Notes under the pieces: generated by a model
What the model saw: the letters and a program-made list of their open reading frames with translations, nothing else
Databases searched by the model: none
What the model was told of the DNA's origin: nothing
Position numbers and translations under genes: made by a program
Origin: Escherichia phage vB_EcoS_MM-1
Strand: one strand, 5' to 3'
Sequence record: PV577657
DNA length: 64,000 nucleotides
Shown here: piece by piece, positions 3,535-54,493 of the stretch
Position numbering within the stretch: the first letter of the stretch is position 1
Layout: each line of letters begins with the position of its first letter

Positions 3535-3953
3535 TACGGAACAGTTAGGCTGCCCCATTAAGGGTTGTTTTAACTGTTACGTGTTAGTTTTTAAACAAAT
3601 AGTTAATAGAATACTTAGCGATCTACATCCCGTAGGAACCCTGGTAAGGCCTCGAAGCAACCTAGTGTGAGGTGGTTGTGAAGTGAGACGGGAAGAGTGA
3701 AAAACTCTGAGAAGTGATGACGTAAGGTATACTGCATCTAGTATGAGCTAGTACATGAAGCATTAGGTGAGCAAATCTGGCTTAGCGGCCATCCTCAAGG
3801 ATTTGTGCGGTATAGTGAAGCGGCAGTGTAGCGTGAAAGGGGAAGTTGCCACCCCCCTTCAGTATTTGCGATTAATTTGTTGAGAAATTGACAGTAACAG
3901 TTGTTCTATTCTTTCTGAATAGTCCTAAAGAAAACTTATTTCATTTCCAACAC
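3535..3953 (+). ncRNA. candidate structured untranslated leader or ncRNA (no ORF of 60 aa or more on either strand)
   Basis: About 420 nt between promoters and the RBS at 3954; purine/G-rich composition unlike the AT-rich flanks; hairpins GAGTgaaaaACTC, ATCCTcaAGGAT and GGGG-N11-CCCC. Confidence 0.3.
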
Positions 3954-3965
3954 AGGAGTATTGTT

Positions 3966-6752
3966 GTGTTCTCAATCCTACAAGGTCATGCAGGATTTCA
4001 TCGCGATTTAGCCACAGGCATTTGGCGAGAAGTTAAAGCAGAAGACTATCTTTTTGCTAAAAGATTTTCCTCAAAGCATCCTGAAGGTAAACCAGCTTCA
4101 ATGCCCTTCAAGTTTGATGTAATTGATGAAGTTGATCCTCAAACCCTAGTAGAAATGCTCCCTCTTATGAGACGTTTAACGTCTGACCCTCATATCGTTG
4201 CGGTACGAGGTCGATGTCTTGCACCCAAAAATAATGTGCGGCGTAAGAAGGGCAACTTTAATGTATCTAACCCAAGTCATATAATTGCAATGGACGTGGA
4301 TGGTATTGTAGATACAGGTGGTTGTAACAAGTTTGATCTTGTTGGCATGGCTCGACATATTATTAGAATGTTAAATAGTATTAGTGAGGATATGTTTCCT
4401 CTTGATGCAGGGTTTATTGCTCATGCATCGTCTTCGGCTGGGCTAAAACCAGGTATCCGAATGCACTTAATACTAGAATCTAATGTTAAAGTAACTCAGG
4501 GTCAAATCAAATTCTTATTTACATCTATCAATGAAAGTAGTAGACAAAAGTATGGCTTTGATATTGCCGACTTAGCTTATTACTCTTCCGTACAGCTCCA
4601 TTATTTTGCAGATCCGTTATTTACCGATGGTATAGTAGATCCGTTTAAGGCGGAGGGTGCTTCACGTCTGGTATTTGTTAAGGGTTCTAAAGTAAACTTA
4701 CCTAATAATCTGGTTGACTATGAAACAACTAGAGGTGAGTTTAAGGAGGAGTTTTACTCTTTACTCGATCAAATTAAAGGTAAAAAAGCTGCCTCCGATA
4801 AAGTAGAGGAAACTATCAGCGAACTAGAAGAAGCTGAGGATGGAGTGTATCTACGTATCATACCTAAACTCTATCACAGAGCTTTAGAGGATGGTGTTGA
4901 TTTTGCATGGCTAGAAAAAGAAATCCGTCCAGCCTTATCAGAATATATTGCAACCAAAGATAATAGTCGTAATATTCAAGATTACTTTAATAACGGTCGT
5001 AAACAGGCTCTGAAAGCATTTGTTAATAATTCTAAACGCGATATACCTGATGTTTTAAAAGGTATTCCACTTAAAAAGCTAGAAACTAACTCTCTAGAAA
5101 CTGATAACTTCTTGAAATTAAATACTGTACCACCAGAAGGTTATATGACTTTTGTAAAAGCAAGTCTAGGTACAGGTAAAACTACGGCGGTTGTGCGTTG
5201 GTTAGATTCAGGAGTTATTAAAGGTAATTTCTTAGCAATTACCAATACTCGAGCACTGGTATCTTCAAATGCTAAGAAATTTAGTGCAGGACAATATGAT
5301 AAGTCTGTAGATATGCTTAATTTTAAGCGTGGTGCTATTGACCGTATGTCCACAACTATTCACTCTTTGCATAAGTTCAAGAGTTTTATTGGTCAAATCG
5401 ATGCAATCTTTATAGATGAATGTGATGCTGTAATGAATGACCTATTATTCGCCCCGGTTGTTAAACAACGTCGTGAATGTATTCAGGTTCTTCGGGATAT
5501 TCTTGCAACTGCAAAAATCATTATATTATCTGATGGGGATATTAGTGCAGAAACAATTGAAGCATATGGTTCTTTAATTGAGTTTGATAAACCGGTTGCA
5601 TTTTATAATCATCACCGAAAAATGCTATCAAAAGCTCATGCCTACGAGTTCCCTGATGAATCCAGTATTTGGGTTGCACTTCAGACTTCTCTAGAGATGG
5701 GTGAGAAATCTATCCTAGTATCTGACTGTGGGCCGGATGAACTGAATGAGAAGGGCATGGCGTTGCGTCGTAATACGGGTGCGTTAGTTAAGGAAATCCA
5801 CTCAAACTCTACGTCTGATGTAGATATTCGACGTATTCTGGATTACACAACTAATGAGTTAATTGACCAACAAATTGATTGCTTATTATGTAGTCCATCC
5901 GTAACGAGTGGTGTTGACTTCAACTATTTTGATAACGTATTCGTTATTACTAGAACCAGTAACCAAGCGCCAAACATGCGTTTTCAAGCAATCAGGCGCG
6001 ACCGTGGTGCTCAGAACATTTATTATTTTATTGATAAATCTACGAGTGGATTCTCCGCAGGCTCTGAACAATATAATATTGATGAAGGTTGGCTGGAGTT
6101 AGCACAGCAATTATACGCACGTCGTAGGGAGCTGGAGTCTAGGAACTATACTAGTACTTTACGTTATTACTTGCTTGATCAGGGTGCAACTATTGATATT
6201 TTCAGTGAAAGCTGGGGAACTATCGAAGGTGCAGGTAAAGAGTATACAGAAGAGCGAATCAAAGCCATTTTGTATTCAACTCCTGATTATTGTGCTCCAC
6301 GCCATGCAGATGCATATGAAGCTAAACTACTTCTTGTTCGCTATTATCATCTTGAGTCTATTAAAGATGTAACAGTTGAGCATGTTGAGCAATACATTAA
6401 GGATAAACCGAATGATCGAGCGGCATTCTTCCATAAAATGCACGAGATGTTCTGGGAAGATATTAAGAAGTGTTCAAATGTCACTATCAAACCATTCATA
6501 GAAGCTCTGAAAGGCAAGAAGAAAGATTTCTTCCTTAAAACAGGTCAGAGTGCTAACCCAAAATATGCCAGAATGTATCTTGGTATGATGGGTATTGGCA
6601 AGGATATGAACACGGAGAATATTGTAGACTGGTACAGAACTTATTGTAAAATCGAGTGTATGCCAATTCCTTTCAAATTCATGACAGAGGAAGAGAAGGC
6701 TATGGCAGAAGAAGTACTGTCCGAACTTGGAGCAACTAATGAAGACGCATAA
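3966..6752 (+). CDS. large replication protein: AEP-primase-like N-domain fused to a P-loop helicase domain (possibly the replication-origin-binding type protein of T5-like phages)
   Basis: In-frame GTG at 3966 with AGGAG at 3954-3958 (track start TTG 3888 is less likely); DxD motif IIAMDVDG, GIRMHLIL, Walker A ASLGTGKTT, Walker B IFIDECD. Confidence 0.6.
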   Translation: MFSILQGHAGFHRDLATGIWREVKAEDYLFAKRFSSKHPEGKPASMPFKFDVIDEVDPQTLVEMLPLMRRLTSDPHIVAVRGRCLAPKNNVRRKKGNFNVSNPSHIIAMDVDGIVDTGGCNKFDLVGMARHIIRMLNSISEDMFPLDAGFIAHASSSAGLKPGIRMHLILESNVKVTQGQIKFLFTSINESSRQKYGFDIADLAYYSSVQLHYFADPLFTDGIVDPFKAEGASRLVFVKGSKVNLPNNLVDYETTRGEFKEEFYSLLDQIKGKKAASDKVEETISELEEAEDGVYLRIIPKLYHRALEDGVDFAWLEKEIRPALSEYIATKDNSRNIQDYFNNGRKQALKAFVNNSKRDIPDVLKGIPLKKLETNSLETDNFLKLNTVPPEGYMTFVKASLGTGKTTAVVRWLDSGVIKGNFLAITNTRALVSSNAKKFSAGQYDKSVDMLNFKRGAIDRMSTTIHSLHKFKSFIGQIDAIFIDECDAVMNDLLFAPVVKQRRECIQVLRDILATAKIIILSDGDISAETIEAYGSLIEFDKPVAFYNHHRKMLSKAHAYEFPDESSIWVALQTSLEMGEKSILVSDCGPDELNEKGMALRRNTGALVKEIHSNSTSDVDIRRILDYTTNELIDQQIDCLLCSPSVTSGVDFNYFDNVFVITRTSNQAPNMRFQAIRRDRGAQNIYYFIDKSTSGFSAGSEQYNIDEGWLELAQQLYARRRELESRNYTSTLRYYLLDQGATIDIFSESWGTIEGAGKEYTEERIKAILYSTPDYCAPRHADAYEAKLLLVRYYHLESIKDVTVEHVEQYIKDKPNDRAAFFHKMHEMFWEDIKKCSNVTIKPFIEALKGKKKDFFLKTGQSANPKYARMYLGMMGIGKDMNTENIVDWYRTYCKIECMPIPFKFMTEEEKAMAEEVLSELGATNEDA

Positions 6753-50444: not shown

Positions 50445-52202
50445 TTAGGTAAGGCGTTGAACTGTTACTCTTAATCTAGGTAGAAAAACTGCACTACCTA
50501 AACTTACGTGCATAACTACCCCTAACTCTACATTTCCATTCCCCAGATTTTTAGCAGTATATATAAAACTATTTCTACTTAGGGCATTGTTAGGTGTGTA
50601 TCTAAAAGCAGATGTAGTATGAAAAGGTACTAAATACCCTACTGGTAATGTTAAAATCTGGTGGAATATCGCGTCACCATTACTATAACTATATGCTCTT
50701 CTTCCTTGCACCTGAAACACACCGTTATTCCATGTATTAGCAGGGACACCTGCACAGTTAAGATTACCTGATATAACTTCAGTGGTAAGAATTACTGTAG
50801 CATTGCCACCCGGTATACCTAGCCCAATAGTTGATAAACCAACGTATCTATCTCCTGTTCCTGGGTAGCTGGGGGTAATATCATCTCCCATATAAGAACT
50901 ACCTACATTTCCACCAAAAAGTCGTAATGGAACTGCTGATGGTCCCCAAACAACCCCGTGTTCATTACCGATAGTATTATCATTAGAGTTTACGTACCAT
51001 TGCTTACCAGCTCCGAATTTGTAAATACTAATTTGAGACTTAGCCCCTCCATAGTCCACAGGAGACCATAAACTCCCGTTACTAGAACCTACAAGTTCAC
51101 ACCTTGCGGTGGTATCCCCAAAGGCCCCAGTATATGCTGCATTATTTCCAATATATTCCATATCTGGTCTATAACCTAAGTTACCGAAAGCGTTCTGGTT
51201 AATAAACTTGTATCCAGTATTGGGAAGACTAACCCCTTTAATTATGAAATTAGAAGGAGATATAAGAATATCTGAACCAGTAAAAGGATTACCAGAGATA
51301 CTCATACCACCATTTGAGTATCTTAAATTCAAAACGTACCAAATAACTTTAGTAGGAGTTATGTTATACCAATCTTGTAGTATTGTAGAATCACCAGATT
51401 GATTAGCTAAATTAGTTGTAGAACCCCTACAAACAAACCTATTACCCCCATCATGATACATAGTATTTACATTACCAGGAAGACCTTGTCTTACCCCACC
51501 ATACCCACGTATGTTAGAGTTACAAACATAGAACCAATCGTGCCCTCTGTGTGCTGATCCTAAAGGAGACATCCATCCTGGGTCCCAGTAATTTTGGTTA
51601 TTCCCATCTATAGGTACTGTACTACTATTAGTAGGGAATCCTAACTGTGCAAAAGCTTCTGCAACAGTAACCCCTACTGGAGCTCCTGCACCTGGCCTAA
51701 CTATACCATGATACGTACTATGTAGGGTAGTTCCACCAGTACCATTCCTAGAAATAGATTCTTCATGCCCTATAGATGGATTATAGTTATATGTACCAGA
51801 TGCCAGGCTATTACCAAATGCAAATCCACTAGTCTGGGAAACACTAGCAAAAGATCTAAAAGGATCTGCTTGAGTGGCAACTATAGTTTGACCCACCTTA
51901 CTCTGAGTACCATTAAGAAAAGCTCTGTGAGTACCATTAATCTCAATAGCAGTTAATATAACTCTACCAGGATCGTTAGATTTAATATTTATTATGTCAG
52001 AGGGCATCTGACATACAAAAAACCCATTTCCGGCATTTCCTAACCCAGCCTCATAAGTACCATCAACTAGGACAAATGGCATATCACTATGAAAAATACT
52101 ATTGGCATTTGGACTATAGTGACGATTAATGTCACCACCAGATTCAGTATTTAAAGATAGTACGGTCTTACCATCGCTATATTTTCCAGCGAAAAAACCC
52201 AT
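50445..52202 (-). CDS. receptor-binding tail protein (pb5/Oad-like)
   Basis: 585 aa, Gly/Asn-rich, divergently adjacent to the llp-like lipoprotein as in T5. Confidence 0.6.
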
Positions 52203-52227
52203 ATAATCTCCTATTATAAAAATGTAT

Positions 52228-52256
52228 TTGCTTTCATCCCTCTATTTTGCTATAAT
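52228..52256 (+). promoter_or_regulatory. PN25-like early promoter driving llp
   Basis: TTGCTT, 17 nt, TATAAT, then AGATTCATAAATTAGAAATGGAGAG. Confidence 0.65.
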
Positions 52257-52287
52257 AGATTCATAAATTAGAAATGGAGAGATAAAT

Positions 52288-52554
52288 ATGAAAAAGTTTG
52301 TGATTGCACTAGTTGCCGCAGTTATGTTATCTGGTTGTGCACCTGCTCCCAAACCATTTTGTACTGGATTTGTAAAATCTTTTGGTGGTGCGGGAGAAGA
52401 ACATTACGGCCTCAAGGTTCAAAAAGTTCGTATTAAGGGAGATCGCTTCCCAGTAGTACAGCTCCGTACTAAGTTTGGATGGTGGGATCTCAGTCAGTTT
52501 GACCTTAAATATGGTGATTGTAAATTTAAACTAGAGCAATCTAACTACATGTAA
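52288..52554 (+). CDS. llp: lytic-conversion lipoprotein (Llp-like), receptor-blocking superinfection exclusion
   Basis: Signal peptide with lipobox LSGC; small size; divergent from the receptor-binding gene. Confidence 0.7.
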   Translation: MKKFVIALVAAVMLSGCAPAPKPFCTGFVKSFGGAGEEHYGLKVQKVRIKGDRFPVVQLRTKFGWWDLSQFDLKYGDCKFKLEQSNYM

Positions 52555-52731
52555 TTAGTATAAAGCAAAAAGACATCTAAGTAAACTAAATTTTTTATTT
52601 TTTGGATGGTATATTGGCAGAAACCACTATGTAAGAAAATGAGAAGTCCTTCTAGGAAGTCACAAGCATGGTTGGTTATATACAAATTATAAAATATTTT
52701 AAAATACCATACTCATAGGAGCAAGAAAGAT

Positions 52732-52860
52732 ATGTCAAATAAAAGAAAGAACAGACGCGGAGAAGTGTACGAAGCGTGGATTAATATTTACGGATTTGGT
52801 TTTGTATTATTCCTAATCTTCGTAGGTTTTTGGTTAGCAGCTATGGCGGGGTGGATTTAA
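52732..52860 (+). CDS. small basic protein with one C-terminal transmembrane helix (42 aa)
   Basis: RBS AGGAGCAAGAAAG then ATG; MSNKRKNRRGEVYEAWINIYGFGFVLFLIFVGFWLAAMAGWI. Confidence 0.45.
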   Translation: MSNKRKNRRGEVYEAWINIYGFGFVLFLIFVGFWLAAMAGWI

Positions 52861-53015
52861 TGGAATGGGTAATTATTGGCATATTCGTCTTATTGATACT
52901 TCTCTTTGTAGGCTTACGTGTAATAGATACCTCTGTAACCCAAACAGAAATTAAATTAATGCAGTTGAGTAATAGATTATCTAGAATTGAAACTTTATTA
53001 GAGGAGCGTAAATAA
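52860..53015 (+). CDS. small single-pass membrane protein, paralog 1 (51 aa)
   Basis: ATG overlaps previous stop (TAATGG); MEWVIIGIFVLLILLF...RIETLLEERK. Confidence 0.5.
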   Translation: MEWVIIGIFVLLILLFVGLRVIDTSVTQTEIKLMQLSNRLSRIETLLEERK

Positions 53016-53122
53016 TGGAATGGGTAATTATTGCACTACTGGGGATTGTGATTATTGGGCAATGTATTTTAGATAATTATTTAGCTAGAATTGAAACCTT
53101 ACTATCGGAGAAACGTAAATGA
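53015..53122 (+). CDS. small single-pass membrane protein, paralog 2 (35 aa)
   Basis: ATG overlaps previous stop; MEWVIIALLGIVIIGQ...RIETLLSEKRK. Confidence 0.45.
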   Translation: MEWVIIALLGIVIIGQCILDNYLARIETLLSEKRK

Positions 53123-53313
53123 TGGAAGTGGGAATTACACTAATAGTAATATTAGTCTGGGTAATCCTCATTGTCTCTCGTATAGTGTATCTCCGCCTAA
53201 AAACTCTAGAAGCTCAGGTGAAACAACAACAAGTTATTCTAGAAAAGTTAGTACTACTGCAACGTTGTGATAGCACCCGTATTCTGCAAATTGAGAGGGA
53301 ATTAGATGTTTAG
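53119..53313 (+). CDS. small single-pass membrane protein, paralog 3 (64 aa)
   Basis: ATGA overlap with previous gene; MMEVGITLIVILVWVILIV then amphipathic helix. Confidence 0.5.
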   Translation: MMEVGITLIVILVWVILIVSRIVYLRLKTLEAQVKQQQVILEKLVLLQRCDSTRILQIERELDV

Positions 53314-53551
53314 TATTGTAATTGCTTTTATTATCGGGATACTTGCGGGAGTTTTCGGGACAACTGCGGCAATCAACAAGCATCGTAAATATATTGCGGA
53401 AGTATCGCGGGAGATTGCGGAAAGGGAGCGGAAGTTTGACGAGAAACGTGCGGAGTTTGAGCGGGAGTGGTCGGACGGATCTCGGGCGTCGCGGAAGAGA
53501 TTCCGTGAGTTCAGACCAGAACACAGGTTTGATGACCATTCTATGCGCTAA
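53306..53551 (+). CDS. small membrane protein with Arg/Glu-rich C-terminal tail (81 aa)
   Basis: 8-nt overlap with previous gene; N-terminal TM helix MFSIVIAFIIGILAGVFGTTAA. Confidence 0.5.
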   Translation: MFSIVIAFIIGILAGVFGTTAAINKHRKYIAEVSREIAERERKFDEKRAEFEREWSDGSRASRKRFREFRPEHRFDDHSMR

Positions 53552-53716
53552 TTTGACTTTTGCCAAATTTCATAAGATTACACATGGAGGTGTGTCCAGT
53601 GGGTCGGGGGAGAATACTTAGTCTGCTAACCGCCACCCCCCGTTACTATTATCATGGTAATTGTTTCACCCTGCAATTAAAATGGTTGCAGGGTGAAACA
53701 ATTTCAACTTTAATTA

Positions 53717-54493
53717 TTACGCAACTTTTAATTTCTCGATATATTGTTGCGGGCTGCAACTATATTCTGCGCGTTCTTCCTCGGTCATACCTTCCCAACA
53801 TAATTTCAAACGATCAGCTAGGAATTGATAATCATTATCATCATCGAGGGATTCATCAATAAAGGTTTCACCTATCAATGCCACGCCGATTGATAGAATA
53901 TCGTTAACGGCTTGCGCGTCCAGCGTTTTAAATCCGTATGATGCCGCCGCTGATAGTACACCCTTATGATCATCAATCATTGTAAAATCAGCGTTCGGAT
54001 ATAACTGTTTAAATAATTCAAAATAATAAGATTTATAAACTGCGTCTTTGCTGTGGTATATCTCGCTAACTTTATCAGCCTCAAAATATTTATGCAGTGT
54101 ATCGCGAGAAAACACGCGGATATTACTATCACCACGACCGCGCAAGCCTTGTTTGCGCAAATAATAATAGTCCGACTTGCTCATTAGTCGAGCGGTACAA
54201 ATAATGTTTAAAGTATTTGCGTCATTCATGCACTGGCGCATATATGTAACAAGGGGCAATAAAGTATCTTGCATTATTAAATCATGTTTGCAGGCTTCAT
54301 TTTTATACTTATTTAAATCTAAATTGCCCTCGCTATCAAAGCAAGGCGCTACACGATGGAAAGAATTAATGATAGTGCCGTCCAGATCCCAAATCATGAC
54401 GCGGGAAATATGCGGGAAATTACGGGTAATATTCATTTTAACTTGATTCATTTTGTTACGTTCTCCATTAAAGGGATTTAGTTTATCCAGCAT
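53717..54493 (-). CDS. dmp: HAD-family 5'-deoxyribonucleotidase-like protein (Dmp-like)
   Basis: HAD motif I MIWDLDGTIINS; first gene of the pre-early-like block. Confidence 0.65.
   Translation of the reverse strand: MLDKLNPFNGERNKMNQVKMNITRNFPHISRVMIWDLDGTIINSFHRVAPCFDSEGNLDLNKYKNEACKHDLIMQDTLLPLVTYMRQCMNDANTLNIICTARLMSKSDYYYLRKQGLRGRGDSNIRVFSRDTLHKYFEADKVSEIYHSKDAVYKSYYFELFKQLYPNADFTMIDDHKGVLSAAASYGFKTLDAQAVNDILSIGVALIGETFIDESLDDDNDYQFLADRLKLCWEGMTEEERAEYSCSPQQYIEKLKVA

What the first reader, a model, noticed from the sequence alone, without database searches (positions are those of the whole stretch)
52732..53551. Translationally coupled cluster of five small single-pass membrane proteins (three clear paralogs) between llp and the pre-early block
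Five tiny ORFs (35-81 aa) are packed with overlapping stop/start codons (TAATG, ATGA). Three share the N-terminus MEWVII / MMEVGI and a C-terminal amphipathic helix (RIETLLEERK, RIETLLSEKRK). They sit directly beside the Llp superinfection-exclusion lipoprotein and the receptor-binding gene. None falls in the ORF track as called (too short or mis-started). A duplicated, co-translated set of membrane micro-proteins at this locus could be a holin/antiholin-like or membrane-targeting exclusion or anti-defence module.
Basis: seen in the sequence. Interest (0 to 1): 0.62.

Follow-up and report, generated by a model that had tools for sequence, protein, structure and literature searches.

The report
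Known T5 membrane micro-protein operon
The five tiny overlapping genes are real, conserved genes for small inner-membrane proteins of T5-like phages. They were first listed in 1994 as orf1-4 downstream of llp (here with one extra tandem copy), and their function is still unknown.

Summary
Five ORFs of 42, 51, 35, 64 and 81 aa lie at 52732-53551 (+), each with a Shine-Dalgarno-like motif, joined by TAATG, TAATG, ATGA and an 8-nt overlap. Each has one strongly hydrophobic segment.

They are not new. The window is 100% identical over 52200-53750 to Escherichia phage vB_EcoS_MM-2, where all five are annotated CDSs. T5 carries four of them (T5.159-T5.162, orf1-4 of GenBank X75922). All fall in existing PHROG families of unknown function.

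In 16-26 related genomes the annotated frame is always open and has the lowest pN/pS (0.13-0.46).

Only the 51-aa and 35-aa ORFs are demonstrable paralogs, by a tandem duplication found in about 34 phage records. The 64-aa ORF shares architecture only.

The 81-aa family is an orphan: a full HMMER profile search of 1.84 billion proteins found T5-like phages only.

A holin or antiholin role is unlikely, because endolysin, holin and spanins sit about 85 kb away. T5 knock-downs of all four genes scored "Not Fit".

Best reading: an accessory early operon, probably co-transcribed with llp, of inner-membrane micro-proteins facing the cytoplasm that modify a host membrane function. Exclusion or anti-defence roles are untested.

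Low novelty, modest interest.

The parts
52228..52256 (+). llp promoter: TTGCTT, 17-nt spacer, TATAAT, followed by AGATTCATAAAT. It is the probable promoter of the whole llp-O5 transcription unit.
   Evidence: Read directly from the sequence. The homologous position is annotated as the llp promoter in T5 records X75922 and NC_005859. llp is described as expressed early (Decker 1994 title, cited in PMC9586334).
52288..52554 (+). llp homolog: an 88-aa Cor/Llp-type superinfection-exclusion lipoprotein and the first gene of the unit. It is context for the finding, not one of the five ORFs.
   Evidence: phrog_1119 at E 1.8e-26, Pfam LPAM_1 lipobox. Annotated as such in PV577658 and MZ501058.
52732..52860 (+). 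O1 (42 aa), ortholog of T5.159/orf1. It has a basic N-terminus (MSNKRKNRRGE) and a C-terminal TM helix (residues 22-38), so it is predicted to be tail-anchored, N-in. The near-invariant motif is FVGFWLAAMAGW.
   Evidence: phrog_8596 at E 6e-31. Present in all 26 loci examined, pN/pS 0.16. Hydropathy and flanking charge.
52860..53015 (+). O2 (51 aa), an extra tandem paralog of O3/T5.160 with about 17 extra residues in the middle. It is absent from T5 itself.
   Evidence: phrog_6369 at E 1.5e-16. hhalign against the O3 family gives 95.6%. DNA direct repeats at 52858-52878/53013-53033 (100%) and 52970-53006/53074-53110 (78%). tblastn finds it in 34 phage records at >=80% query coverage (35 matched in all), against 443 for O5.
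53015..53122 (+). O3 (35 aa), ortholog of T5.160/orf2. It has an N-terminal TM helix and a short helix. Invariant motif: GQCxLDNxLxRxE.
   Evidence: phrog_6369 at E 8e-25. Found in 25 of the 26 sequences by the extraction script and visible in the ORF list of the 26th (L005). pN/pS 0.13. Invariant columns.
53119..53313 (+). O4 (64 aa), ortholog of T5.161/orf3. It has an N-terminal TM helix and a heptad-patterned helix, and is a variable member of the cluster. Its last codons overlap the SD and start codon of O5.
   Evidence: phrog_5851 at E 7.5e-31. Missing in 7 of 24 IMG/VR loci, and found in >=193 of 443 phage records. pN/pS 0.46. 9 of 12 heptad a/d positions are hydrophobic.
53306..53551 (+). 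O5 (81 aa), ortholog of T5.162/orf4. The N-terminal TM helix has an invariant small-residue face (G11, G15, G18, A22). It is followed by KHRK and a highly charged helix built of heptads (IAEVSRE/IAERERK/FDEKRAE/FEREWSD). The last ~14 residues are variable and disordered.
   Evidence: phrog_6447 'membrane protein' at E 6e-48. AlphaFold2 gives one helix over residues 2-69, mean pLDDT 72.7. Invariant columns. Core pN/pS 0.26. Orphan family.
53659..53703 (.). 21-bp hairpin between the convergent O5 and dmp genes, just inside the terminal repeat. It is the probable bidirectional terminator that ends the unit.
   Evidence: Folding energy -33.6 kcal/mol, z = -7.4 against shuffles. Inverted repeat I1. 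Annotated as a repeat_region in X75922. The llp-O1 spacer has no comparable structure (z = -0.48).

Best explanation
The five ORFs are genuine protein-coding genes. They correspond to the orf1-4 / T5.159-T5.162 cluster found in Tequintavirus and Epseptimavirus phages, and this lineage has one extra tandem copy of T5.160.

Inferred expression: they are transcribed together with llp from the strong sigma-70 llp promoter, as an early unit that ends at the hairpin just inside the terminal repeat. Overlapping stop/start codons translate them as a coupled chain.

Inferred products: bitopic inner-membrane micro-proteins.
- O1 is tail-anchored, with a basic cytoplasmic N-terminus.
- O2-O5 have a TM helix at the extreme N-terminus. 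By the positive-inside rule they sit N-out/C-in, so their short amphipathic or highly charged helices lie on the cytoplasmic face.

Inferred mechanism: conserved small-residue faces in the TM helices and the coupled synthesis suggest homo- or hetero-oligomers, or docking onto a larger host inner-membrane protein. Bacterial small membrane proteins act in this way.

Inferred role: an accessory module that conditions the membrane of the infected cell. My preferred version is a second, receptor-independent layer of protection alongside Llp, such as blocking DNA entry by superinfecting phage or stabilising the envelope. It is not part of the lysis machinery and is not needed for growth on laboratory hosts.

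Confidence by step:
- Real genes encoding membrane micro-proteins: about 0.9.
- Early co-transcription with llp: about 0.6.
- The specific exclusion or envelope role: about 0.25.
For: Shown:
- Coordinates, overlaps and SD-like motifs.
- The junction overlaps persist in every gene-content variant. Where O4 is missing, O3 joins O5 through TAATG.
- The annotated frame is open in all genomes and has the lowest pN/pS.
- One strongly hydrophobic segment per protein, with positive charge after the TM helix in O2-O5 and before it in O1.
- O5 models as one continuous helix.
- G11, G15, G18 and A22 of O5 are invariant, and FVGFWLAAMAGW of O1 is nearly so.
- The llp promoter is TTGCTT-17-TATAAT. The llp-O1 spacer shows no terminator-like structure. 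A strong hairpin follows O5.
- The cluster is kept beside three different Llp/RBP cassettes, with the similarity break about 45 nt upstream of O1. It is therefore independent of receptor specificity.
- Lysis genes are located elsewhere.
- T5.159-162 and llp all score 'Not Fit' in the CRISPRi-ART screen (PMC11879866 supplement).
- O2 and O4 are naturally absent from many phages.

From established knowledge:
- The positive-inside rule.
- Translational coupling through overlapping stop/start codons.
- Small bacterial membrane proteins such as MgrB and AcrZ act by binding larger membrane proteins.
Against: - There is no direct evidence of transcription, translation, localisation or phenotype for any of the five. 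The paper library has no hit for T5.159-T5.162 in main text.
- Topology rests on very short flanks and is weakly determined for O3.
- An internal promoter before O1 cannot be excluded. About 45 nt upstream of O1 are conserved and include a -10-like TAGAAT/TAAAAT.
- If the soluble parts are cytoplasmic, they cannot touch Llp or the outer-membrane receptor. The link to exclusion is then synteny only.
- The CRISPRi-ART 'Not Fit' calls are weak evidence. In the same T5 data set the endolysin and several virion genes are also 'Not Fit'.
- Part of the conservation at the C-termini of O3 and O4 may reflect the overlapping SD and start codon of the next gene.
Confidence: 0.4

Rival explanations
1. Host-takeover or anti-defence micro-proteins. 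The peptides bind and inhibit a host inner-membrane component, such as a membrane-anchored defence effector, FtsH/LapB-type proteolysis, the division machinery or an energy-transducing complex such as TonB-ExbBD. They would not exclude other phages.
For: - The architecture, probable early expression and dispensability on a defence-poor K-12 host are the same as for the best explanation.
- Presence of O2 and O4 varies between lineages, as is typical of accessory counter-defence genes.
- The predicted cytoplasmic orientation suits cytoplasmic-face targets better than periplasmic ones.
- O5 gives weak sub-threshold matches to LapA_dom in 12 of 15 family members, and to ZapG-like and FtsL models. 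All of these are an N-terminal TM helix plus a cytoplasmic or charged helix.
Against: - No match to any PADLOC, NCBIfam or Pfam model at threshold.
- The exhaustive profile search found no relatives outside T5-like phages, so no functional transfer is possible.
- No target is known.
- The LapA_dom score is below the cut-off (22.2 against 28 bits) and covers mainly the TM segment.
Confidence: 0.25
2. Membrane-permeabilising peptides. The set forms small pores or depolarises the membrane, in the manner of type I toxins or viroporins, to shut down host physiology or tune the timing of lysis (a pinholin/antiholin-like role).
For: - The peptides are tiny and very hydrophobic, with glycine-zipper-like faces in O1 and O5.
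- A duplicated pair (O2/O3) is reminiscent of holin/antiholin pairs.
Against: - A complete lysis cassette (endolysin, holin, two spanins) lies elsewhere in T5 and in the phage identical to this window.
- No significant holin HMM match (phrog_689, E 0.5).
- The upstream promoter belongs to an early gene, whereas holins are late.
- O2 and O4 are missing from many fully viable phages.
- The knock-downs have no fitness effect in T5 (weak evidence).
Confidence: 0.08
3. Some or all of the ORFs are non-functional filler: chance open frames in AT-rich DNA, or decaying remnants kept only by linkage.
For: - They are very short.
- O4 has a relatively high pN/pS (0.46) and is often absent. One genome (L014) has a truncated O4 and one (L027) an internally deleted O5.
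- AT-rich sequence readily encodes hydrophobic peptides: 7.8% of small ORFs in the window pass the hydropathy cut-off.
Against: - The frames are open in all 16-26 genomes.
- Variation is biased toward the third codon position and pN/pS is 0.13-0.26 for O1, O3 and O5, while alternative frames carry stops.
- SD motifs and junction overlaps are conserved in every configuration.
- O5 is found in 443 phage records.
Confidence: 0.03

Closest known systems
T5 orf1-orf4 downstream of llp (GenBank X75922, Decker et al. 1994), which are T5.159-T5.162 of NC_005859
   Same: - Orthologous genes in the same order and position, between llp and the right terminal repeat.
- Same lengths (42, 35, 64, 81 aa) and same overlapping junctions.
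- Already noted in the record as 'contains single transmembrane domain'.
- Same PHROG families: 8596, 6369, 5851, 6447.
   Different: - This phage lineage has one additional gene (O2, 51 aa), a tandem duplicate of T5.160 with an internal expansion. It occurs in about 34 of about 443 records.
- The adjacent Llp/RBP cassette is of a different type from that of T5 (88-aa against 77-aa Llp; 585-aa against 640-aa RBP).
Small inner-membrane superinfection-exclusion proteins of other phages, such as T4 Imm and Sp and the HK97 gp15 moron (recalled from the literature, not tested here)
   Same: - Short phage-encoded inner-membrane proteins.
- Dispensable in the laboratory.
- Encoded near other host-conversion genes.
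   Different: - No sequence relationship was detected with any family outside T5-like phages.
- No exclusion phenotype has been reported or tested.
- This locus holds a coupled set of four or five peptides, not a single protein.
Bacterial small regulatory membrane proteins such as MgrB, AcrZ, MgtS, KdpF and CydX (established knowledge)
   Same: - Size range of 30-80 aa and a single TM helix.
- Conserved helix-packing faces.
- The likely mode of action is binding to a larger membrane protein.
   Different: - These are phage-encoded and clustered.
- There is no homology and no known partner.
Pfam LapA_dom (PF06305) and ZapG/YhcB-like proteins
   Same: O5 shares the layout of an N-terminal TM helix, a basic juxtamembrane stretch and a long charged helix. 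12 of 15 family members give E <= 0.01 against LapA_dom.
   Different: - All scores are below the gathering threshold (best 22.2 against 28 bits).
- The O5 profile search of 1.84 billion proteins returned no LapA-like protein.
- The similarity is probably compositional.
Class II/III holins, antiholins and spanins
   Same: Small membrane proteins with charged C-terminal parts. O4 and O2 have heptad-patterned helices, as i-spanins do.
   Different: - They are not in the lysis cassette, which lies about 85 kb away with its own holin and PseT-type spanins.
- No HMM match.
- They are far shorter than i-spanins, and the predicted orientation is the opposite (N-out/C-in).

Membership tests
T5.159-T5.162 cluster (PHROGs 8596 / 6369 / 5851 / 6447) | Full-length HMM match of each ORF to the corresponding PHROG | tested here: met
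   O1 6e-31, O2 1.5e-16 and O3 8e-25 (both phrog_6369), O4 7.5e-31, O5 6.4e-48. All cover the full profile.
T5.159-T5.162 cluster (PHROGs 8596 / 6369 / 5851 / 6447) | Position between llp and the right terminal repeat, same strand as llp, with overlapping junctions | tested here: met
   Same layout in T5, MM-2 and DaisyDussoix and 24 IMG/VR loci.
Holin / antiholin | Encoded in the lysis cassette next to the endolysin | tested here: not met
   The endolysin, holin and spanin genes are at 20.6-23.9 kb of MM-2 and 19.9-23.2 kb of T5, about 85 kb from this cluster.
Holin / antiholin | Sequence match to a known holin family | tested here: not met
   The best match is phrog_689 at E 0.5 for O2. There is nothing in Pfam or NCBIfam.
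Holin / antiholin | Late expression and triggered membrane permeabilisation | not testable with these tools
   The only indication is that the upstream promoter is that of the early gene llp.
Two-component spanin (i-spanin/o-spanin) | N-in/C-out i-spanin with a periplasmic coiled coil of roughly 100 aa or more, paired with an outer-membrane lipoprotein o-spanin in the lysis cassette | tested here: not met
   The ORFs are 35-81 aa, and the charge distribution predicts N-out/C-in. T5 and MM-2 already have Rz-like spanins (T5.044/045, CDS0066/0067).
Llp/Cor receptor-blocking lipoproteins (phrog_1119) | Signal peptide with lipobox cysteine, and a match to phrog_1119 | tested here: not met
   Only the upstream 88-aa gene matches (1.8e-26, LPAM_1). 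None of O1-O5 does. The 'receptor-blocking protein', 'tail assembly' and 'tail fiber' labels given to these ORFs in some GenBank records have no support.
LapA_dom (PF06305) | Score at or above the Pfam gathering threshold (28 bits) | tested here: not met
   The best O5 score is 22.2 bits, E 1.3e-4. 12 of 15 members match, all below threshold.
Known anti-phage defence components (PADLOC-DB) | HMM match | tested here: not met
   No family at E <= 1 for any of the five.
Inner-membrane superinfection-exclusion proteins (T4 Imm/Sp, HK97 gp15 type) | Expression alone blocks DNA entry of homologous phage | not testable with these tools
   This needs plating and DNA-injection assays. No sequence similarity to any annotated family was found.

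The most novel reading that the evidence does not exclude
The coupled peptides assemble into one hetero-oligomeric inner-membrane complex. This complex would be a second, receptor-independent layer of T5 'lytic conversion'. It could block channel formation or DNA entry by superinfecting phages. Alternatively it could disable a shared inner-membrane partner of the TonB-dependent receptors (FhuA, BtuB, FepA) that T5-like phages use. That would explain why the cluster stays constant while the Llp/RBP cassette is swapped.
Probability: 0.15. Interest if true: 0.6.

Novelty: already known. Interest (0 to 1): 0.25.

Why it matters
T5 is a classical model phage, yet the genes next to its well-studied exclusion lipoprotein Llp have had no function assigned in about 30 years. 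They are conserved in more than 400 sequenced T5-like phages, many of them biocontrol or therapy candidates.

If they prove to be a membrane-level exclusion or counter-defence module, that would add a second mechanism to T5 lytic conversion. It would also give a tractable example of how phage micro-proteins act.

As it stands, this finding re-identifies annotated hypothetical genes. Its value is in these corrections:
- Only two of the ORFs are paralogs.
- O2 and O4 are variable members of the cluster.
- The soluble parts probably face the cytoplasm.
- A lysis role is unlikely.
- Several GenBank labels for these ORFs ('tail fiber', 'tail assembly', 'receptor-blocking') are unsupported.

Tried and rejected
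- Spanin idea (Llp as o-spanin with O4/O5 as i-spanin): rejected. T5 and MM-2 have PseT-type spanins beside the lysis cassette, and the predicted topology is opposite.
- O4 as a third paralog: rejected by profile-profile comparison.
- The short O3 variant (...ARIERKLREYK) in O4-less phages as an O3-O4 fusion: rejected. The same variant coexists with a divergent O4 in L026, and the DNA alignment shows a clean absence of O4.
- Remote homologs of O5: the word-based search and the exhaustive HMMER profile search returned T5-like phage proteins only.
- Pfam, NCBIfam and PADLOC: nothing at threshold.
- Rfam on 52150-53800: only sub-threshold miRNA-model hits on the terminator hairpin.
- Antisense and +2 frames open across O5 (110-aa and 99-aa ORFs): explained by the purine- and GC-rich composition of O5. 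The sense frame has the lowest pN/pS.
- Literature: no paper in the library mentions T5.159-T5.162 in its text. The Llp structural papers, the BF23 genome paper, the T5 mutagenesis paper and the gpT5.026 paper say nothing about these ORFs.
- Distant T5-like phages at the same locus: a Klebsiella phage has two non-homologous proteins with an N-terminal TM helix and coiled coil. A Proteus phage has soluble 115-126-aa proteins, and a Vibrio phage has nothing comparable. This gives only weak support for positional analogy.
- Fold search was not run. The O5 model is a single helix, for which structural matches are meaningless.
- The second structure job and the remaining protein-database searches were not used. 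Queries of 35-64 aa dominated by a TM segment were unlikely to add anything beyond the PHROG assignments.
Full report
**What is there.** The region 52732-53551 holds five + strand ORFs:
- O1: 52732-52860, 42 aa.
- O2: 52860-53015, 51 aa. The ATG lies inside the longer TTG-started ORF that the ORF lister reports.
- O3: 53015-53122, 35 aa.
- O4: 53119-53313, 64 aa.
- O5: 53306-53551, 81 aa.

The stop and start codons overlap as TAATG, TAATG, ATGA and an 8-nt ATGTTTAG. Each start is preceded by a purine-rich Shine-Dalgarno-like motif.

Every product has one segment with a 17-residue Kyte-Doolittle mean of 2.5-3.2. Among the 141 ATG-ORFs of 35-100 aa in all six frames of the window, only 11 reach 2.4. 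Five of those 11 are this cluster.

**Identity of the locus.** Positions 52200-53750 are 100% identical to Escherichia phage vB_EcoS_MM-2 (PV577658, Tequintavirus). They are 90-96% identical to many other T5-like phages.
- All five ORFs are annotated CDSs in MM-2 (CDS0198-0202) and in DaisyDussoix (bas31_0187-0191).
- T5 itself has four of them. They are T5.159 (42 aa), T5.160 (35 aa), T5.161 (64 aa) and T5.162 (81 aa), each noted in the record as 'contains single transmembrane domain'.
- The 1994 llp entry X75922 already lists them as orf1-orf4.
- Each ORF matches a PHROG over its full length: O1 phrog_8596, O2 and O3 phrog_6369, O4 phrog_5851, O5 phrog_6447 ('membrane protein'). None has a known function.

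**Are they genes?** I used 24 IMG/VR loci plus T5 and DaisyDussoix.
- The annotated frame is open in every genome.
- That frame has the lowest pN/pS: O1 0.16, O3 0.13, O4 0.46, O5 core (codons 1-66) 0.26, and O2 0.19 with only four sequences.
- The other frames contain stops and/or have higher pN/pS (0.29-3.2). The lower values fall in the antisense frame whose wobble positions coincide with the sense frame, and in two stop-interrupted frames of the 35-codon O3. That antisense frame is also open across O5, which fits the GC- and purine-rich composition there.
- Junction overlaps persist in all gene-content variants. Where O4 is absent, O3 is joined to O5 by TAATG.

It does not prove translation.

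**Paralogy.** O2 and O3 are paralogs.
- They belong to the same PHROG.
- hhalign gives probability 95.6% and E 1.3e-8.
- The DNA carries a 21-nt perfect direct repeat at their 5' ends, including the TAATG junction, and a 37-nt repeat of 78% identity at their 3' ends.

O2 is O3 with about 17 extra residues in the middle. It occurs at >=80% coverage in 34 phage records, against 443 for O5. It is therefore a lineage-specific tandem duplication.

O4 is not detectably related to O2 or O3 (probabilities 11% and 3%). It shares only the layout of an N-terminal TM helix followed by another helix. 'Three clear paralogs' should read 'two'.

**Gene content across relatives.**
- O1, O3 and O5 are present in all loci examined.
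- O4 is missing in 7 of 24 loci and is found in at least 193 of 443 records.
- The cluster is kept next to three different Llp types: a 77-aa T5 type, the 88-aa type found here, and a divergent 88-aa type. In the llp-O1 spacer, similarity between the T5-type loci and the rest resumes only about 45 nt upstream of the O1 start. The cluster is thus independent of the receptor-specific Llp/RBP cassette.
- The last ~14 residues of O5 are replaced wherever an HNH homing endonuclease or another small ORF is inserted between O5 and the terminal repeat.

**Protein features.**
- O1 has a basic N-terminus (MSNKRKNRRGE) and a C-terminal TM helix with the near-invariant motif FVGFWLAAMAGW.
- O2-O5 start directly with the TM helix. 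Their N-flank is 0-3 residues with net charge 0 or -1, and positive charge follows the helix. The positive-inside rule therefore predicts N-out/C-in, with the soluble helices on the cytoplasmic face. This is an inference and is weakest for O3.
- In O3 the invariant motif is GQCxLDNxLxRxE.
- In O5, residues G11, G15, G18 and A22 are invariant and form a small-residue face.
- AlphaFold2 models O5 as one helix over residues 2-69 with a disordered tail (mean pLDDT 72.7).
- The cytoplasmic part of O5 is four heptads (IAEVSRE/IAERERK/FDEKRAE/FEREWSD). It is 57% charged, and the first two heptads are encoded by a 21-nt DNA repeat.
- O2 and O4 have heptad-patterned helices.

**Homology searches.**
- O5 relatives occur only in T5-like phages. 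The word-indexed search gave 82 clusters. The exhaustive HMMER profile search of 1.84 billion representatives gave five hits, all from the same family.
- tblastn finds O5 in 443 phage records, whereas the neighbouring dmp gene is found in 908 records, including Klebsiella, Proteus and Vibrio T5-like phages. The cluster is therefore restricted to the Tequintavirus/Epseptimavirus part of the family.
- Nothing reaches threshold in Pfam, NCBIfam or PADLOC.
- O5 hits LapA_dom below threshold in 12 of 15 members (best 22.2 against 28 bits). I treat this as shared architecture, not membership.

**Expression context.**
- Upstream of llp there is a near-consensus promoter, TTGCTT-17-TATAAT, at 52228-52256. 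It sits at the position annotated as the llp promoter in T5.
- llp is an early gene, according to the title of Decker et al. 1994 as cited in PMC9586334.
- The 177-nt llp-O1 spacer has no terminator-like structure (z = -0.48).
- A 21-bp hairpin (z = -7.4) follows O5 at 53659-53703, between O5 and the convergent dmp gene.

The simplest reading is a single early transcription unit, llp-O1-O5. An additional promoter in the conserved 45 nt before O1 cannot be excluded.

**Function.** No paper in the library mentions these genes in its text.

The CRISPRi-ART T5 data set lists T5.159-T5.162 and llp as 'Not Fit' (PMC11879866 supplement). That is consistent with accessory genes. The evidence is weak, because the endolysin and several virion genes are also 'Not Fit' in the same set.

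The holin/antiholin idea is disfavoured for three reasons:
- T5 and MM-2 encode endolysin, holin and two Rz-like spanins about 85 kb away.
- There is no holin HMM match.
- The promoter context is early.

The same facts rule out a spanin role.

What remains is an accessory, early, coupled set of inner-membrane micro-proteins. By analogy with bacterial small membrane proteins, they probably act by helix-helix binding to each other or to a larger host membrane protein. My preferred role is a receptor-independent complement to Llp, meaning protection of the infected cell at the inner membrane (about 0.25). A host-takeover or anti-defence role is about equally likely (0.25). Pore-forming or lysis-timing roles (0.08) and non-function (0.03) are less likely.

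**Comparison with known systems.** The cluster is a member of the T5 orf1-4/T5.159-162 group, with all tests met. It fails the tested membership features for holins, spanins, Llp/Cor lipoproteins, LapA_dom and PADLOC defence families. Resemblance to T4 Imm/Sp or HK97 gp15 is functional speculation from memory and was not tested.

**Verdict.** This is a real feature, accurately located and already annotated, with unknown function. Novelty is 'already known' and interest is 0.25. The most novel reading not excluded is a hetero-oligomeric inner-membrane exclusion complex that complements Llp (probability about 0.15, interest if true about 0.6).

Noticed in passing
window 53393-53434 (within O5); relatives P0020, P0073, P0074, P0079: The cytoplasmic helix of O5 is built of tandem heptads (IAEVSRE/IAERERK/FDEKRAE/FEREWSD), the first two encoded by a 21-nt DNA repeat. 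It is 57% charged, like an ER/K single alpha-helix. Natural variants lose 7 or 17 residues or gain 4 in this stretch. O5 is also much richer in GC (0.49, GC3 0.51) than its neighbours and the window as a whole (0.39).
   Followed up: partly
L013, L016, L018-L021, L023-L025, L027 around 3700-4220 (equivalent to window ~53500-53600): The slot between O5 and the terminal repeat is an insertion hot spot. HNH homing endonucleases of 157-184 aa, or a 67-71-aa ORF, are inserted there. Each time the last ~14 residues of O5 are replaced by a different tail. L027 also has an internal deletion in the TM region of O5.
   Followed up: partly
L021, L022, L026 between llp and O1; window 52555-52731: L026 carries an extra acidic 104-aa ORF between llp and O1, L022 appears to hold only split remnants of it (35 and 37 aa), and L021 has an HNH endonuclease there. 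The window's llp-O1 spacer seems to keep a decayed remnant of the 3' end of that ORF (MVGY..IKYF). This may explain the conserved ~45 nt before O1.
   Followed up: partly
window 52545-52685 (- strand): The MM-2 GenBank record annotates a 46-aa antisense CDS (CDS0197) in the llp-O1 spacer. It starts with TTG, overlaps the llp stop codon, and is not annotated in T5 or DaisyDussoix. It is probably a spurious call.
   Followed up: no
window 52228-52270: The llp promoter (TTGCTT-17-TATAAT followed by AGATTCATAAAT) closely resembles the T5 PN25 promoter used in expression vectors. That resemblance is from memory and was not checked. The consensus scan missed the promoter because TTGCTT matches only 3 of 6 positions of TTGACA.
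   Followed up: no
window 53641-53721: A 21-bp perfect-stem hairpin (z = -7.4) lies just inside the right terminal repeat, between the convergent O5 and dmp genes. It is probably a bidirectional terminator. Because it is inside the repeat, a copy also sits at the left end of the genome. Rfam gives only sub-threshold miRNA-model hits on it.
   Followed up: partly
L030 (Klebsiella phage vB_Kpn13-P1, PP848836) 4856-5538, - strand: In this more distant T5-like phage, the position next to the receptor-binding gene holds a 74-aa and a 151-aa protein instead of a lipoprotein plus O1-O5. Each has a TM helix at the extreme N-terminus (MEVAIIVL..., MIIVPILA...) followed by a coiled coil. Neither shows detectable homology to O4 or O5.
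   Followed up: partly
GenBank annotations listed (e.g. ESCO30, SP01, LmqsSP1, phiLLS, PS3-1): Several records label these micro-ORFs 'tail assembly protein', 'tail fiber protein', 'receptor-blocking protein' or 'receptor binding protein'. No search here supports any of these names. They look like propagated mis-annotations.
   Followed up: partly
PMC11879866 supplementary file 16 (T5 CRISPRi-ART): In the T5 screen the endolysin (lys, T5.040) and the virion gene N4 (T5.145) are scored 'Not Fit', as is the tail-fibre gene ltf. 'Not Fit' calls in this data set therefore cannot be read as proof of dispensability.
   Followed up: no
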